DNA of 64,000 nucleotides. It comes from a virus. Numbering within the stretch: position 1 is the stretch's first letter; each line of letters opens with the position of its first letter. Positions 25,634 to 30,726 of the stretch are shown in pieces. The notes under the pieces are model-generated. The model saw only the letters and a list, made by a program, of their open reading frames with translations, was not told the origin of the DNA and did not search any database. The stretch lies in IMG/VR virus record IMGVR_UViG_3300028364_001588; one strand, 5' to 3'. The position numbers and the translations under genes are program-made.

Positions 25634-26561
25634 ATGACTTGTTTCTATCTTCGTCAAAGAAGTATTCTTTTTTGGCAAGGTCCATCCAGAACCCCATTTC
25701 TGCTGGAGAAACGCCTCCTTTGTCTGGTTCAATTGTTGTAACGTTTCCTGGAATTTTAGAAGATGAATGATTAAACTCTTGAGAATTTCTCACTCTAAAT
25801 TCGTAACCAATTCTTGGAACCGTCATCATTTTTACATCATTATAAATCATTCTTAAAAAGAACTCATAATAGTGACTTACTTTAACACTTTCCTTCATTG
25901 GTAAAAATCTACCATCTTTCTCTTCGCTGTATTCTTCAAGCTCACTTACTCTATAAAGGCCTCCAAGTGGATTAGCACAGTTATATCTTAAAAGTAGGTT
26001 CATATCAAACTTACCTGCTTCTTCAGCAATACCTTCTGCCCAACACGCTTCATTCATTAATCCTGAAAGAGCTCCGTTTTGCCAGTTTTTAACCATTGGC
26101 AAGAAAAAACCTATTTCTTCGTTTTCATTCATAAAAGCATTGGCAATATTATACCAATTTGCTCCTACTGCGTCTCCAGACTCTATAATAGAGAATGCTT
26201 CATAGTCGTTTTCAAGAGCTAAGTTGAATATGTCATTAAACACTTTTGGAAAGCTACTTACAGATGCTTTTACAACACTTAAGTTTACGCTTTTCTCAGC
26301 TTTTATTACTTCTTCTACAGGCTCTTCTCCTTCTTGGTGTGTTTTCACCATTCTTACTTCAGCTTCTTTTGCTGTTTTAGCAAGAATTTCTACTTCTTTA
26401 TCAGACAATCCAGCATCCAACACAACAACATCAACTGCGTGAGTTTGCGAAGCCAGTCCGAAAAACAATTCGTTTAACTGACCTTCGTGGTTGATTTTGT
26501 CCAAGTATAACCCTACAAGTATATTACTGCTTGAGGCTTTCAAGTTCTTTGATTCTTTCAT
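25608..26561 (-). CDS. GT-A (GT2-like) glycosyltransferase, divergent
   Basis: LASQT..VDVVVLD; YEFFLRMIYNDVKMMTVPRIGY; the DxD is atypical (ESGD). Confidence 0.55.
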   Translation of the reverse strand: MKESKNLKASSSNILVGLYLDKINHEGQLNELFFGLASQTHAVDVVVLDAGLSDKEVEILAKTAKEAEVRMVKTHQEGEEPVEEVIKAEKSVNLSVVKASVSSFPKVFNDIFNLALENDYEAFSIIESGDAVGANWYNIANAFMNENEEIGFFLPMVKNWQNGALSGLMNEACWAEGIAEEAGKFDMNLLLRYNCANPLGGLYRVSELEEYSEEKDGRFLPMKESVKVSHYYEFFLRMIYNDVKMMTVPRIGYEFRVRNSQEFNHSSSKIPGNVTTIEPDKGGVSPAEMGFWMDLAKKEYFFDEDRNKSYGQQPEKV

Positions 26562-27723
26562 CTTTGTACTGATTTAATAAATTATTAATATTTTCTTTCT
26601 CTCCCTCCGTAGTGTATTTACTAAGAGTGTCTTCGTATGTTTTTTGGATGTCTTCATTATCCATATCACCATTCAACCATTTGTCGATAGCAATTCCAAG
26701 AATTTCTGCAGTTTGAAAAATGTCACCATTGTTACACCAGAAACCGTTTTCGTTATTCATATACTCTTTACCACCGAATGAAGCCCAACCAATAGTATGA
26801 GTTCCACAAGCCATTGCTTCAAGTGGTGCTGTACCAAATCCTGCAATGTCATCTGTATACAAGTAGAATGCACAATTTCCTAATCTCTCAGCAAATTGCT
26901 CTCTATCCATACCTTCGAGTTCTTGGAATCTTACCCACTTAAGGTGAGGATAGAATGCGTAGAACGTCTTGATGATGTTATAAGTCTTAAGTTTGTTTTC
27001 TGGACCTCTTGATGCAGAGAATGCTACCATTGGTAATTTGTCCGACATTTTTTCAGGAACTTTAAAGTATTCTCTATTGATTCCTTGTTTAAAATCTTTA
27101 ATGTTAAGACCTGGCATAACTGATACTAAGTATTCAGAAATTGCGTCTGATGCTGAAATTACATCTGTAATCCCAAAGTGTTGCCACTTTTCTCCTGGCT
27201 GCATTGCATTTAATACATAAAACCAGCTTTGTGCAAATATAATTCTCTTACAAGAAACTTGCATTGTTTTCTTCATTACATCTGGAAAACCTTCAGGAAT
27301 GATTAAGAAATCTTCTGGACTTACATTAAGAGGAATACAATCTTGTTCAGTTCCATCTGAAAATTTAATTTTTTTATCTCCAAGAGGACTAATTGAAATA
27401 TTTGAGATGTCAAAATCAACCCACTTAGGATTGAACTTCTCAAAAATATCTGTTTGTTTCTTAGCTTTTGCAGAAGCTTCATAAGAAGCTCTTTGGTCTT
27501 GTCTTGGTTCATAAACAATCTCTACATCAAATCCATCATCTGATAAATTTTTAGCTGCTTTTAAAATTACCCCAATCCCACCACTTGGCGAATTCATTGG
27601 TGGACAATAAAAGTAAGTCTTAAATTTGTTTTCTCTAAGATTACTAATCGCATTGTCGATTACCTCATTTTGAGTTGGCTGTCTTTCTTGTTGTACTTCT
27701 TGTACTTCAGTGTTGTTTTCCAT
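26524..27723 (-). CDS. GT-B (GT4-like) glycosyltransferase
   Basis: PSGGIGVI, IIPEGF, GFGTAPLEAMACG. Confidence 0.8.
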   Translation of the reverse strand: MENNTEVQEVQQERQPTQNEVIDNAISNLRENKFKTYFYCPPMNSPSGGIGVILKAAKNLSDDGFDVEIVYEPRQDQRASYEASAKAKKQTDIFEKFNPKWVDFDISNISISPLGDKKIKFSDGTEQDCIPLNVSPEDFLIIPEGFPDVMKKTMQVSCKRIIFAQSWFYVLNAMQPGEKWQHFGITDVISASDAISEYLVSVMPGLNIKDFKQGINREYFKVPEKMSDKLPMVAFSASRGPENKLKTYNIIKTFYAFYPHLKWVRFQELEGMDREQFAERLGNCAFYLYTDDIAGFGTAPLEAMACGTHTIGWASFGGKEYMNNENGFWCNNGDIFQTAEILGIAIDKWLNGDMDNEDIQKTYEDTLSKYTTEGEKENINNLLNQYKDERIKELESLKQ

Positions 27724-27810
27724 GAAATTATATTTATTTCGATTAATTAAAGTTCTAACGTGTATTCGAAATAAATATAGAAAGCATAAATAGTAAAATA
27801 AATAGTTTTT

Positions 27811-27846
27811 AAAAAAAAGACCAAGAAATTAATCTTGGTCTTTTTT
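27811..27846. terminator. Bidirectional intrinsic terminator
   Basis: A8-GACCAAGA-N6-TCTTGGTC-T6. Confidence 0.85.
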
Positions 27847-27856
27847 AAATTTGTAA

Positions 27857-28050
27857 TTGCAGCGACTAAAGAGAGTCTAACAGCAGGCCAGACTTGTAAG
27901 CTTGTCCAGAATCAAATCCTGCCTTTTCAGCTTGTTCAGATTATCATCCTGCTTCTAAATTCCACGAGTCTTCCTGGGTCTTGTATTATGGTTTACGCAA
28001 GGTTACTGGTTTGCTCTCACTAATGTTAACCTTTTTTCGTGTCGCTACAA
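27857..28050 (-). ncRNA. Candidate structured ncRNA (~195 nt), family not recognised
   Basis: Ends pair (UUGUAGCGAC/GUCGCUGCAA). Nested stems GAGAG/CUCUC, CAGUA/UGCUG, CCA..GACU/AGUC-UGG and two tandem GCAGGAU..UCUG.ACAAGCU hairpins. More GC-rich than other intergenic DNA; followed by a terminator. Confidence 0.6.
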
Positions 28051-28056
28051 AACAAA

Positions 28057-28899
28057 TTATGCTTTATTTTCAGTATCTTCCTTAAGATTTGAATCATCTT
28101 CACCAACAGTGTCTCCATCAACTACTGCAGAAAAGAAAGTGTTATTATCCATTGCCATATTTTCAAGCGTAACATCTCCAAGAGAAGCTGACACTGAATA
28201 TGAAACATTGCTCATTTGAGCTCTTGACACAATACCTCTTGACAAAGTATCATAAGCTACAGAAGCACCTCCAGCTGTTGACGCATAGTTCATAGCGTTT
28301 CCAGAAGAAATACCAAATCTACTTGCAGCTAAAACAGCATCTTGATTTGCTCCCATGTAACTAAATGTCCAAGCTCCAGTTTTTTCAAGTTCACTAACAA
28401 TTTTTTTAATGGAGTCAGAACTATGCTCTCTCGAAGCGTTTTCGTCACCATCAGTCATAACAACAACAAGCGCTGTTGAAAGATTTTCGCTTTCTTTGTT
28501 TTTCTTATCCAATTGAACTCTAAGGTTTGAGATACCAACTCCCATTGCATCATGCAAGGCTGTACCACCTCTTGGAGGGAACTCTGTACCATCAAAGTTT
28601 TTAACACTTGAAATAGGTTCGTTTTCCAACACTGTGTCAATTTCTGTATCAAACACAACAAGAGATACAAAATATCTTTGTTCAGGATATTTCTCCTCAA
28701 GGTGTCTAATTGTTCCAAGCTGTTCATTTAATCCGCTAATTGTCGAATTCCAGCAAGAGCTCATAGAACCACTTCTATCTAACACTAATAAATAGTGTGT
28801 GTCTAAATTTTTGTCTACCGTTGTGGTAGTAGTTGTAACTACAGTTGTAGTCGTTTTTGTAACAGTCTTCTTTTTTGAATCTTTTTTGTTTTTTGCCAT
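28057..28899 (-). CDS. Stand-alone vWA (MIDAS) domain protein
   Basis: LVLDRSGSM, GGTALHDA, VMTDGDENASRE, YMGANQDA. Confidence 0.9.
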   Translation of the reverse strand: MAKNKKDSKKKTVTKTTTTVVTTTTTTVDKNLDTHYLLVLDRSGSMSSCWNSTISGLNEQLGTIRHLEEKYPEQRYFVSLVVFDTEIDTVLENEPISSVKNFDGTEFPPRGGTALHDAMGVGISNLRVQLDKKNKESENLSTALVVVMTDGDENASREHSSDSIKKIVSELEKTGAWTFSYMGANQDAVLAASRFGISSGNAMNYASTAGGASVAYDTLSRGIVSRAQMSNVSYSVSASLGDVTLENMAMDNNTFFSAVVDGDTVGEDDSNLKEDTENKA

Positions 28900-28983: not shown

Positions 28984-29703
28984 TTATTTTTTCTCCTTAT
29001 CTCCAACAAACAAATCCTCTATAAAAGAAGGGTTAACATCTCTAATAGATTTGAAGCTATGTTCAACTTCATCGTACTGATTAAATGGGTGCTCTATTTT
29101 TATAATAGTTTTTCCTTTTGGTACATTTTGAATAACTTCAGGAACACAATCAATTATAATATCACAATAATCCCATTTTTCATAATCCTCTTGAATGAAT
29201 GCTATGTTTCTAACTCTACACGCATTCTTTGCAAGGAAGTGAAATGTAGCTGGAATCGCTTTACTATCTGTATTAGATATAAGAATTGTTTTATAAAGAT
29301 TATTTTGAAGCCCGTAAGCCTGAATTCTGTTTAGCGCATCTGAAGCTCCTTCATACTCATCAGCGTCTCCATATATCTTGAAGGGCTTGATGTTGTTCAT
29401 GAAGTTTAAAAGAGCCTCTTCTGGTGATAATACAGTTTCTCCATCAAGAGCAATTTCCTCTCCGAACTTGTAGTGGTTGTTCAAGTTGTATGTATTAACT
29501 GGAAGAGATATAAGCTCTTTCTCTTGAAGGTTTATTCTTTTTTCAAGATTTTCCAACTCTTCTTCAGTGTTCTCCTTTACAGTCATATCTTTGTTCATCT
29601 CTACAAGAGATGGATTGTGGATATATTTACTTCTGTATTGTTTATCAAACGCACTATGAAGGTCTCTCAATACTCCGTCAATGCTAATTCCTAATGTTTT
29701 CAT
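28984..29703 (-). CDS. HAD-superfamily 5'(3')-deoxyribonucleotidase-like protein with degenerate motif I
   Basis: GISIDGVLRD (DxD changed to SxD); KWDYCDIIIDCVP...HPFN. Confidence 0.65.
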   Translation of the reverse strand: MKTLGISIDGVLRDLHSAFDKQYRSKYIHNPSLVEMNKDMTVKENTEEELENLEKRINLQEKELISLPVNTYNLNNHYKFGEEIALDGETVLSPEEALLNFMNNIKPFKIYGDADEYEGASDALNRIQAYGLQNNLYKTILISNTDSKAIPATFHFLAKNACRVRNIAFIQEDYEKWDYCDIIIDCVPEVIQNVPKGKTIIKIEHPFNQYDEVEHSFKSIRDVNPSFIEDLFVGDKEKK

Positions 29704-29856: not shown

Positions 29857-30726
29857 ATGAAAACAAATAAGTTTATAGAAGAGTCGATTAAAATTCATGG
29901 AAATCGCTATAATTATAAAAACACAAAATACACAAACGCAAGAACTAAAATTAAAATAATTTGCCCAGAACACAATGAGTTTGAACAGTTGCCTGGAAAT
30001 CACAAAAGAGGTAATGGATGTCCTAAGTGTATTTATAACAAATTAACTAAAAAAGAAGTTTTAAAGCAATTTAAAAAAATACATGGAGATAAATATGATT
30101 ATTCTTTAATTGATTACAATGGAGATAATGTTAAAGTAAAAATAATTTGTTCAGAACATGGAGTATTTAAACAAGTTCCAGGAATACACAAATTAGGTAG
30201 TGGTTGCAAAAAATGCGCTGGACTTGAGAAATTAGATAATGAAAAAGTGGTGGAGCAATTTAAAGAAACACATGGAGATAAATATAATTATTCTTTAATT
30301 AACTATATTAATGCTCATACAAAAGTTAATATTATATGTCCAGAGCATGGAAGGTGGAGACAAACTCCAAATAATCATAAAAACGGAAATGGGTGTCCTA
30401 TATGTAAAGAATCTAAAGGAGAAAGAAAAATCAGAAATTTATTAAATGAAAATAAAGTCAATTTCATCTCGCAATATAAATTTAAAGATTGCAAAAATAT
30501 ATTGCAATTACCTTTCGATTTTTATTTACCAGAATATAATATATGCATTGAATACAATGGAATGCAACATTATAAACCAATTGAACACTTTGGGGGTAGA
30601 CTTGGTTTCAAAAAAAGAATTATTAATGATAATATAAAAAAAGGATATTGTGAAAAAAACAATATCCTTTTAATAACTATTAACTACAACGAAGATGTAG
30701 AGAAAAAACTTAATCTAAAGTGGTAA
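29857..30726 (+). mobile_element. Free-standing putative homing endonuclease: DUF723 repeats plus Vsr/DUF559-like domain
   Basis: Same architecture as 5902-6837; LPFDFYLPEYNICIEYNGMQHY. Confidence 0.85.

What the first reader, a model, noticed from the sequence alone, without database searches (positions are those of the whole stretch)
27857..28050. Unannotated ~195-nt structured RNA downstream of a vWA gene
Seen (minus strand): a 10-bp closing stem, then nested stems UAGUGAGAG/CUCUCUUUA, CAGUA/UGCUG and CCA-GGAA-GACUCGU/ACAAGUC-UGG, plus a side hairpin CUUG/CAAG. At the apex are two tandem 29-nt-spaced units, AGCAGGAUGAUAAUCUGAACAAGCU and GGCAGGAUUUGAUUCUGGACAAGCU. G-U pairs favour this strand. 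It starts 6 nt after the vWA stop and ends just before a terminator. It matches no tRNA, SRP, tmRNA or riboswitch consensus I recognise. Inference: a processed ncRNA with duplicated protein-binding sites, e.g. a sponge/decoy (three CAGGA motifs recall CsrB repeats), a 6S-like rod, or a partner of the vWA protein by analogy with Ro60-Y RNA.
Basis: partly seen in the sequence, partly recalled or inferred. Interest (0 to 1): 0.72.

Follow-up and report, generated by a model that had tools for sequence, protein, structure and literature searches.

The report
New pseudoknotted RNA in huge phages
A real, strongly conserved, doubly pseudoknotted RNA of about 115-195 nucleotides sits at the 3' end of a vWA gene in a small clade of uncultivated huge phages; it matches no known RNA family and its function is still unknown.

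Summary
The structured RNA is real, but its evidence comes from relatives, not from folding energy (z = -1.6 in the window).

- **Distribution:** I found 11 related phage loci with the element. It always lies between the vWA stop codon and the same terminator, once per genome.
- **Covariation:** 24 of 60 proposed pairs change on both sides, against 11.9 +/- 2.1 in shuffles and 3-8 in slid controls.
- **Conservation:** the core is 91% identical, while the neighbouring vWA gene is 54% identical at third codon positions.

- **Core:** a three-way junction with a covarying loop-to-bulge pseudoknot and a probable second, 5' pseudoknot.
- **Tandem units:** the "two tandem units" are the two arms of one long hairpin capped by a GAAA-type loop.
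- **Dispensable parts:** that hairpin and the closing stem are each missing in two relatives.

Rfam 15 gives no match. The CsrB-like and 6S-like readings fail their tests, and the Ro60/Y RNA analogy has no support: no TROVE gene in the 101 kb held.

Five syntenic relatives carry no recognisable element (one keeps only a short hairpin), and one keeps a vestige, so it is dispensable.

My best guess (about 0.4) is a stable 3'-UTR-borne ncRNA that binds a conserved partner.

The scan noted this stretch twice before on this same genome, and never on other DNA.

The parts
28057..28899 (-). vWA (YegL-like) gene whose 3' UTR carries the RNA
   Evidence: 280-aa ORF. Weak Pfam VWA hit; phrog_7371 at 1.7e-41. 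MIDAS-type DxSxS motif seen in the translation.
27857..28050 (-). Whole structured RNA element (194 nt)
   Evidence: CM R1 hit at 197.6 bits, E = 6.9e-44, the only copy in the window and in the 101-kb record. Covariation.
28041..28050 (-). P1 closing stem, 5' strand (pairs with 27857-27866)
   Evidence: Helix 1: 5 of 10 pairs change on both sides. The stem is absent in L014 and L017, so it is dispensable.
27857..27866 (-). P1 closing stem, 3' strand
   Evidence: helix 1.
28033..28040 (-). A-rich joining strand J1, nearly invariant
   Evidence: Invariant columns. Retained even in the vestigial L004.
28027..28032 (-). PKa 5' strand (probable 5' pseudoknot; pairs with 28000-28005)
   Evidence: One A-U / G-C double change and one mismatch (helix 2). 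The second possible partner, further 3', is excluded by the window and L014 changes. PKa overlaps P3 by 2 nt.
28014..28022 (-). P2 5' strand (pairs with 27867-27875)
   Evidence: 95.8% of cells paired, one A-U to G-U change, otherwise invariant (helix 3).
28004..28008 (-). P3 5' strand (pairs with 27881-27885)
   Evidence: Invariant, so compatible but unproven (helix 4).
27983..27996 (-). Pd hairpin (3 bp) with an 8-nt loop; loop bases 27988-27991 form PKb with 27962-27965
   Evidence: Helix 5 has 2 of 3 pairs with double changes. Helix 6 (the pseudoknot) has 5 of 7 pairs with double changes. Seven different complementary loop/bulge pairs occur. Mean longest run of complementary bases is 5.4 for a sequence's own loop and bulge, against 3.9 for loop and bulge taken from different sequences.
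27962..27977 (-). P4 5' strand (27975-27977 and 27968-27970) followed by the PKb 3' strand (27962-27965)
   Evidence: helices 7 and 8: one C-G to U-A compensatory change (L017) and two G-U changes.
27897..27955 (-).
   Evidence: Helices 9, 11 and 12 have 4/4, 4/6 and 2/3 pairs with double changes. The whole domain is replaced by about 10-25 nt in L002 and L017.
27867..27893 (-). 3' strands of P4 (27888-27893), P3 (27881-27885) and P2 (27867-27875) with invariant joining bases
   Evidence: An alternative 7-bp hairpin within this stretch is compatible but shows no covariation and breaks in two sequences.
27811..27846 (-). Intrinsic terminator (A-tract, 8-bp stem, 6-nt loop, U8) that ends the vWA-RNA transcript
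   Evidence: Sequence. Conserved in all relatives, with or without the RNA.

Best explanation
**Shown**
- This is a genuine, vertically inherited RNA domain, transcribed as the 3' end of the vWA mRNA in a clade of uncultivated huge phages.
- Its core is about 115 nt: stacked helices P2-P3 lead into a three-way junction (P3, Pd, P4).
- The Pd loop pairs with a bulge just inside P4 (pseudoknot PKb).
- A G-rich 5' segment probably pairs with the junction strand next to P3 (PKa).
- A closing stem (P1) and a roughly 60-nt apical hairpin with a GNRA-type loop are optional peripheral parts.
- Helix sequences drift with compensation, while junction and bulge nucleotides are almost invariant.

**Inferred, about 0.4**
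- The RNA works as an autonomously folded module ending at the intrinsic terminator.
- I expect it to accumulate as a stable 3'-UTR-derived ncRNA. Its invariant junction core would be the binding surface or pocket for one conserved partner, a host or phage protein or a small ligand.
- It would be an accessory function used during infection.
- It is not a base-pairing sRNA and not a sponge of repeated motifs.
For: **Distribution**
- There are 11 homologues, always directly after the vWA stop and before the same terminator.
- There is one copy per genome.

**Structure**
- Covariation is strong: 92.7% of cells are paired, and 24 pairs have double changes against 11.9 +/- 2.1 in shuffles (0 of 500 shuffles reach it). 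Slid controls give 3-8.
- The pseudoknot loop and bulge match best within a sequence.
- G-U pairs fix the strand.

**Selection**
- The core is 91% identical, against 75% for vWA nucleotides and 54% at third codon positions.

**Context**
- The terminator is retained right after the element in all loci.
- The loci are fully syntenic, with no variable protein gene linked to the RNA.
- No ORF is conserved on either strand, and indels are not multiples of 3.
- There is no long complementarity to the rest of the genome.
- A nested deletion vestige in L004 and RNA-free relatives show that it is dispensable.

**Base rate (my own knowledge)**
- Complex orphan bacterial and phage RNAs such as OLE, raiA, ROOL, GOLLD and HEARO have so far turned out to be trans-acting RNPs or assemblies.
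Against: - There are no expression data, so neither a discrete RNA species nor processing is shown.
- I found no promoter directly upstream. The RNA may simply remain part of the mRNA and act in cis.
- No partner is identified.
- The invariant helices P2, P3, P4a and P6 and the PKa pairing rest on very little or no covariation.
- The nested consensus is far above the predicted MFE, for example -24 against -52 kcal/mol in the window. That calculation ignores both pseudoknots.
- Only 9 full and 2 partial sequences from one narrow clade were available.
Confidence: 0.4

Rival explanations
1. Cis-acting processive antiterminator, working like HK022 put or Bacillus EAR. The nascent RNA would modify the RNA polymerase that made it. 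That polymerase would then read through the terminator 10 nt downstream into the co-directional genes: glycosyltransferase, a 317-aa ORF and a sigma-like factor.
For: The element lies immediately upstream of a strong terminator, and the downstream genes are co-directional and syntenic in all loci. It has a pseudoknotted fold of about 115-200 nt with invariant junctions. From my own knowledge, EAR also lies between genes of a polysaccharide operon.
Against: The same terminator and the same promoter-like TATTTA-type motifs follow in relatives that lack the RNA, so downstream genes do not need it. A strong terminator is kept right behind the element in all 11 loci. No Rfam antiterminator family matches.
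Confidence: 0.12
2. Ligand-sensing or self-cleaving RNA: a new riboswitch-like aptamer or ribozyme that sets the fate of the vWA mRNA 3' end (cleavage, decay or stability).
For: The architecture is typical of aptamers and ribozymes: invariant junction nucleotides, two pseudoknots, and dispensable peripheral helices with a GNRA-type loop. A conserved alternative 7-bp hairpin competes with P4/P2, and alternative unit hairpins compete with the long apical hairpin. These allow a conformational switch.
Against: I found no expression platform. By eye, no segment is complementary to the terminator's 5' half, and the terminator is the same in RNA-free relatives. A 3'-UTR position is unusual for riboswitches. 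There is no match to any known ribozyme or riboswitch model, and the strand order differs from the HDV-type nested double pseudoknot.
Confidence: 0.15
3. RNA partner of the co-encoded vWA protein, forming an RNP assembled in cis.
For: In all 11 loci the RNA is on the same transcript as the vWA gene, 2-20 nt after its stop. The vWA protein has a Lys-rich N-terminus.
Against: Synteny is fixed across the whole clade, so the linkage carries no information. Five relatives keep the vWA gene with no recognisable RNA and one keeps only a vestige. No TROVE domain is found in the record. vWA domains are not known RNA binders (my own knowledge). The vWA model was of low confidence (pLDDT 54.6), so the fold gives no evidence.
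Confidence: 0.1
4. Self-assembling RNA.
For: The PKb sequences are hypervariable but always complementary, while the rest of the core is invariant. Covariation cannot tell intra- from intermolecular pairing. Phage-associated ROOL and GOLLD RNAs are reported to form RNA-only complexes (10.1101/2024.12.08.627333, listed).
Against: An intramolecular H-type pseudoknot is sterically simple here, with about 15 nt between the two strands. There is no evidence for oligomers.
Confidence: 0.08
5. CsrB-like sponge or 6S-like RNA polymerase decoy.
For: The window has three CAGGA motifs. The length of about 190 nt is close to that of 6S.
Against: Two of the GGA motifs lie inside covarying or invariant helices. 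The third, in the P4 bulge, is not GGA in any relative. The domain that carries them is absent in L002 and L017. The fold is not a rod with a central bubble, and P1 is dispensable. No Rfam CsrB, Rsm or 6S hit is found, even at E = 10.
Confidence: 0.02
6. Not a functional RNA: a DNA-level element (single-strand initiation site, recombination site) or a decaying remnant of a mobile element.
For: Presence is patchy, with a vestige in L004 and possibly in L027. G-T wobble pairs would also be tolerated in single-stranded DNA.
Against: There is one copy per genome, always at the same site, with no flanking repeats. Purifying selection is far stronger than on the neighbouring coding DNA. The pairs are strand-specific, on the transcribed sense strand. 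No reverse transcriptase or TnpB is found in the record.
Confidence: 0.04

Closest known systems
Orphan complex bacterial and phage ncRNAs (ROOL, GOLLD, raiA, OLE)
   Same: Phage-associated or accessory. An intricate conserved fold with pseudoknots and invariant junctions. Function not deducible from context.
   Different: Much smaller (115-195 nt). No Rfam match to any of them. Embedded in a 3' UTR rather than being a free-standing gene. Restricted to one narrow phage clade.
Processive antiterminator RNAs (HK022 put, Bacillus EAR)
   Same: A cis-encoded structured RNA between co-directional genes and just upstream of an intrinsic terminator. EAR is also pseudoknotted and lies in a polysaccharide gene cluster (my own knowledge).
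   Different: No sequence or model similarity. Relatives without the RNA keep the same terminator and downstream promoter-like motifs. Function not tested.
Viral 3'-UTR pseudoknotted elements such as flavivirus xrRNA
   Same: 3'-UTR location. A three-way junction with one pseudoknot from the 5' end into the junction and a second from a hairpin loop to a downstream strand.
   Different: The strand order and sizes differ. This is a DNA phage of bacteria. There is no evidence for exonuclease resistance, and the resemblance is recalled from memory only.
Ro60-Y RNA / bacterial Rsr-YrlA
   Same: An ncRNA of about 100-200 nt with a closing stem, encoded next to a protein with a vWA domain (PMC4201824 and PMC12135203, listed).
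   Different: No TROVE ring protein. No tRNA-like module. No Rfam Y RNA hit. The closing stem is dispensable here, whereas in Y RNAs it is the Ro-binding site.
Candidate structured RNAs of IMG/VR (DNAVirus_X set, PMC10690425)
   Same: The same kind of object (a covarying intergenic phage motif) from the same database. That pipeline required at least 3 IMG/VR regions, and this element has 3.
   Different: That catalogue spans 29-151 nt, and its alignments are not held here. I could not check whether a partial version of this motif is already listed.

Membership tests
Any Rfam 15 family | Covariance-model score at or above the family's gathering threshold | tested here: not met
   There are 0 hits at gathering level in the window. 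At E <= 10, only terminator-driven or chance hits appear in the window and in 8 homologous loci. The best is VrrA at 31.8 bits against a threshold of 50.
CsrB/RsmZ-type sponge | Many A(N)GGA motifs exposed in loops or single strands | tested here: not met
   The window has three GGA motifs. Two lie in helices P6 and P7, and the third is absent in all relatives. The domain is deleted in L002 and L017.
6S RNA | Long rod with a central asymmetric bubble, and conserved closing and terminal stems | tested here: not met
   The covariation-supported fold is a three-way junction with pseudoknots. P1 is absent in L014 and L017. No 6S model hit.
Y RNA / YrlA with Ro60 | A TROVE-domain (Ro60/Rsr) protein encoded by the genome | tested here: not met
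   PF05731 is absent from the 101-kb record, while the positive controls were found. The record is only about 31% of the genome, so absence is not proven.
Y RNA / YrlA with Ro60 | Conserved Ro-binding closing stem and, for YrlA, a tRNA-like module | tested here: not met
   The closing stem is variable and dispensable. ARAGORN finds nothing.
Type III toxin-antitoxin RNA (ToxI-like) | Tandem direct repeats upstream of an endoribonuclease toxin gene | tested here: not met
   The two units are complementary arms of one hairpin. The downstream gene is a GT1 glycosyltransferase.
Transcriptional riboswitch | Aptamer whose 3' part competes with a terminator (an expression platform) | tested here: inconclusive
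   By eye, no complementarity exists between the element and the terminator's 5' half, and RNA-free relatives have an identical terminator. Internal alternative hairpins exist but do not covary.
Processive antiterminator RNA (put, EAR) | The RNA causes read-through of downstream terminators in cis | not testable with these tools
   Only the position (10 nt upstream of a terminator) fits. There is no model similarity.
Self-cleaving ribozymes (hammerhead, twister, HDV-like, pistol, hatchet, glmS) | Family-specific core fold and conserved nucleotides | tested here: not met
   No Rfam hit. The strand order (PKa-5', P2/P3-5', PKa-3', Pd, P4, P3/P2-3') differs from the HDV nested double pseudoknot, which I recalled from memory. 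Catalysis itself was not tested.
Retron msr/msd or TnpB/IscB guide RNA | An adjacent reverse transcriptase or TnpB/IscB gene | tested here: not met
   PF00078 and PF07282 are absent from the record. The neighbouring genes are syntenic and unrelated.

The most novel reading that the evidence does not exclude
The element founds a new functional RNA class specific to huge phages. It would be either a new ligand-binding or catalytic RNA acting from a 3' UTR, or a self-assembling RNA whose hypervariable loop-bulge pair gives lineage-specific intermolecular recognition.
Probability: 0.2. Interest if true: 0.8.

Novelty: categorically new. Interest (0 to 1): 0.6.

Why it matters
Huge phages are known almost only from metagenomes, and their non-coding repertoire is largely unexplored. 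This RNA has the hallmarks that have preceded discoveries of riboswitches, ribozymes and RNP scaffolds: a double-pseudoknot core, near-invariant junction nucleotides and dispensable peripheral helices.

It also comes with natural deletion variants: no closing stem, no apical domain, a vestige only, or no element at all. These already define a minimal core of about 115 nt for experiments.

If a partner or an activity is found, it would add an RNA-based accessory function to phage biology. "New" here means a new RNA family. Whether the mechanism is new is not known. An unnamed entry in a published bulk catalogue of IMG/VR motifs cannot be excluded.

Tried and rejected
- **Rfam:** gathering and E <= 10 searches on the window and on 8 homologous loci gave nothing relevant.
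- **ARAGORN:** nothing.
- **GenBank phages:** blastn of the region gave no match.
- **IMG/VR motif scans:** four exact or degenerate scans found only the two known relatives plus chance hits in coding DNA: L007, L008, L011 and L038.
rejected.
- **Two separate unit hairpins, and the 7-bp hairpin inside the 3' strand:** compatible, but without covariation. They are kept only as possible alternative conformers.
- **Second possible partner for the 5' G-rich strand:** rejected on the changes in the window and in L014.
- **Coding potential on either strand:** rejected.
- **Trans base-pairing target in the phage genome:** nothing beyond chance.
- **TROVE, reverse transcriptase, TnpB:** absent.
- **Literature search for the core sequence:** no paper.
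- **vWA structure model:** too poor (pLDDT 54.6) to search with. The PDB profile search was empty.
- **My own idea that the upstream 239-aa gene is HAD-like:** no HMM support.

Full report
**1. Where it is**

The window is part of a 101.5-kb IMG/VR virus record that CheckV rates about 31% complete, so the phage is a huge one.

On the minus strand the gene order is:
- an A1-like DNA-transfer gene,
- a 239-aa ORF,
- a 280-aa vWA gene at 28057-28899 (weak Pfam VWA hit; phrog_7371 at 1.7e-41),
- the 194-nt element at 27857-28050,
- a strong intrinsic terminator at 27811-27846,
- promoter-like AT-rich DNA,
- a GT1 glycosyltransferase at 26524-27723.

**2. The window alone proves little**

- The minus-strand MFE is -48 kcal/mol with z = -1.59. 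The plus strand gives z = -1.07.
- Rfam 15 gives no hit at gathering level. Lax E-value searches return only terminator-driven or chance hits.
- ARAGORN finds nothing.

**3. Relatives**

I searched IMG/VR, JGI metagenomes and GTDB genomes with the vWA protein or its alignment. This returned 17 distinct syntenic loci.

| State of the element | Loci |
|---|---|
| Present, directly after the vWA stop and before the same terminator | window, L002, L003, L012, L014, L017, L021, L028, L029; L013 and L018 are cut by contig ends |
| Stop codon followed by a short spacer and the terminator only | L019/L020, L027, L034, L037 |
| Vestige of about 45 nt | L004 |

- A profile and then a covariance model found the element in 11 of these loci.
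- L004 keeps the closing stem, the A-rich joining strand and the base of P2.
- Gene order is identical in all loci.
- On a vWA protein tree the RNA-bearing loci group together. L004 is nested among them, so it is a loss. L019 and L034 form an outgroup.
- Each genome fragment has one copy.
- Motif scans of IMG/VR found no copy in any other context.

**4. Selection**

Over 92 core columns the RNA is on average 91% identical between loci. The adjacent vWA gene is 75% identical in nucleotides and 54% at third codon positions.

No reading frame is conserved on either strand, and length differences are not multiples of three.

**5. Structure**

I wrote a structure by hand on alignment A4, built model R1 and realigned (A5). 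On A5:
- 92.7% of cells form standard pairs.
- 24 of 60 pairs show changes on both sides, against 11.9 +/- 2.1 in column shuffles (0 of 500 reach it).
- Sliding the partners by 1-3 columns gives 3-8 such pairs.

| Support | Helices |
|---|---|
| Well supported | P1 (5/10 pairs), Pd hairpin (2/3), inner part of P4 (one compensatory change, two G-U changes), apical helices P5 (4/4), P7 (4/6), P8 (2/3), pseudoknot PKb (5/7) |
| Invariant, so compatible but unproven | P2, P3, outer part of P4, P6 |
| One double change plus one mismatch | PKa |

- **PKb** joins the Pd loop to the bulge just inside P4. Seven different loop/bulge pairs occur. Each loop matches its own bulge as well as or better than any other sequence's bulge.
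- **PKa** joins a G-rich 5' segment to the junction strand next to P3. A competing partner further 3' is excluded by the changes in the window and in L014.
- **Strand.** Pairs that are G-U in all sequences fix the RNA to the vWA-sense strand.
- **Energy.** The nested consensus lies well above the predicted MFE. Those energies ignore both pseudoknots, so the comparative evidence decides.

**6.

- The closing stem, P2, P3 and the outer parts of the fourth stem stand.
- The CUUG/CAAG side hairpin is refuted: one pair is broken in 9 of 11 sequences.
- The inner part of the fourth stem belongs to PKb.
- The two 'tandem units' are the two arms of one hairpin capped by a GAAA-type loop. Folding each unit on its own remains possible but shows no covariation.
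- L002 and L017 replace the whole apical domain with a short stretch. L014 and L017 lack P1.
- The functional core is therefore about 115 nt.

**7. Families considered**

- No Rfam family fits, including across 8 homologous loci.
- CsrB-type sponge fails. Two of the GGA motifs are paired and the third is absent in all relatives; the domain that carries the paired ones is dispensable.
- 6S fails: the fold is not a rod, and P1 is dispensable.
- Y RNA/Ro60 lacks support: no TROVE gene in the 101 kb, no tRNA-like module, and the closing stem is not conserved.
- ToxI-like repeats fail: the units are complementary arms, and the downstream gene is a glycosyltransferase.
- No reverse transcriptase or TnpB is present.
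- A published catalogue of more than 10,000 IMG/VR motifs (PMC10690425) could contain a partial version. Its motifs are 29-151 nt and its alignments are not held here.
- A full-text search for the core sequence found no paper.

**8. How it most likely works**

Shown: a compact, doubly pseudoknotted RNA with invariant junctions. It is made as the 3' end of the vWA transcript and is always followed by a retained strong terminator. It is dispensable, since it has been lost or was never present in close relatives, and it is not linked to any variable protein gene.

Inferred:
- The invariant single-stranded and junction nucleotides form a specific three-dimensional site for one conserved partner.
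- The terminator defines the 3' end of a stable RNA.
- The function is accessory.

| Reading | My estimate |
|---|---|
| Stable 3'-UTR-borne ncRNA or RNP | about 0.4 |
| New 3'-UTR aptamer or ribozyme | 0.15 |
| put/EAR-like antiterminator | 0.12 |
| vWA partner | 0.1 |
| Self-assembly through an intermolecular PKb | 0.08 |
| Non-RNA or non-functional | 0.04 |
| Sponge or 6S-like | 0.02 |

None of these can be settled without expression or biochemical data.

**9. Limits**

- Only 9 complete and 2 truncated sequences from one narrow clade were available.
- The host is unknown.
- The vWA structure model was too poor to use.

**10. Verdict**

This is a real, new RNA family of unknown function. 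Interest is moderate to high for RNA biologists and phage genomicists.

The scan had flagged this stretch twice before in other readings of the same genome, and never on other DNA.

Noticed in passing
window 27724-27810 and the same region of all loci (e.g. L019:3300-3435): The spacer between the terminator and the glycosyltransferase start is conserved even in RNA-free relatives. It carries several TATTTA-type promoter-like motifs and a 7-nt inverted repeat flanking about 23 nt just before the ATG. It has no Shine-Dalgarno sequence. Similar TATTTA motifs precede the vWA gene and the 239-aa gene.
   Followed up: no
L004:3775-3820 and L027:515-550: L004 keeps a deletion vestige of the element: the closing stem, the A-rich strand and the P2 base capped by a short loop. 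L027 has only a short AU-rich hairpin at the same place, which may be an older vestige.
   Followed up: partly
L018:1351-1426: This truncated copy, sister of L021 on the vWA tree, departs from the consensus right after the PKa 3' strand and carries a G-to-A change in P3. It may be a rearranged variant. The contig ends before this can be judged.
   Followed up: no
window 29857-30726 (+): An HNH/treble-clef homing endonuclease gene lies between the A1-like gene and the 239-aa gene in this genome only. None of 14 syntenic relatives has it.
   Followed up: partly
window 27811-27846 versus 27973-27981: The 5' half of the terminator stem is nearly identical (8 of 9 nt) to the invariant strand that leads into P4. 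RNA-bearing loci and the L004 vestige share this terminator type, while RNA-free loci have other stems. This may be common descent or a functional alternative pairing.
   Followed up: partly
window 28984-29703 (-): The 239-aa ORF upstream of the vWA gene is conserved in all relatives at 57-94% identity. It has no Pfam, PHROG or NCBIfam match, and an N-terminal motif that looked HAD-like by eye is not supported. Together with the A1-like gene this recalls the T5 pre-early region, from memory only.
   Followed up: partly
window 28816-28899 (-): The vWA protein begins with a Lys-rich stretch followed by a Thr/Val-rich run of about 20 residues ahead of the vWA fold. tblastn does not align this low-complexity N-terminus in most relatives.
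   Followed up: no
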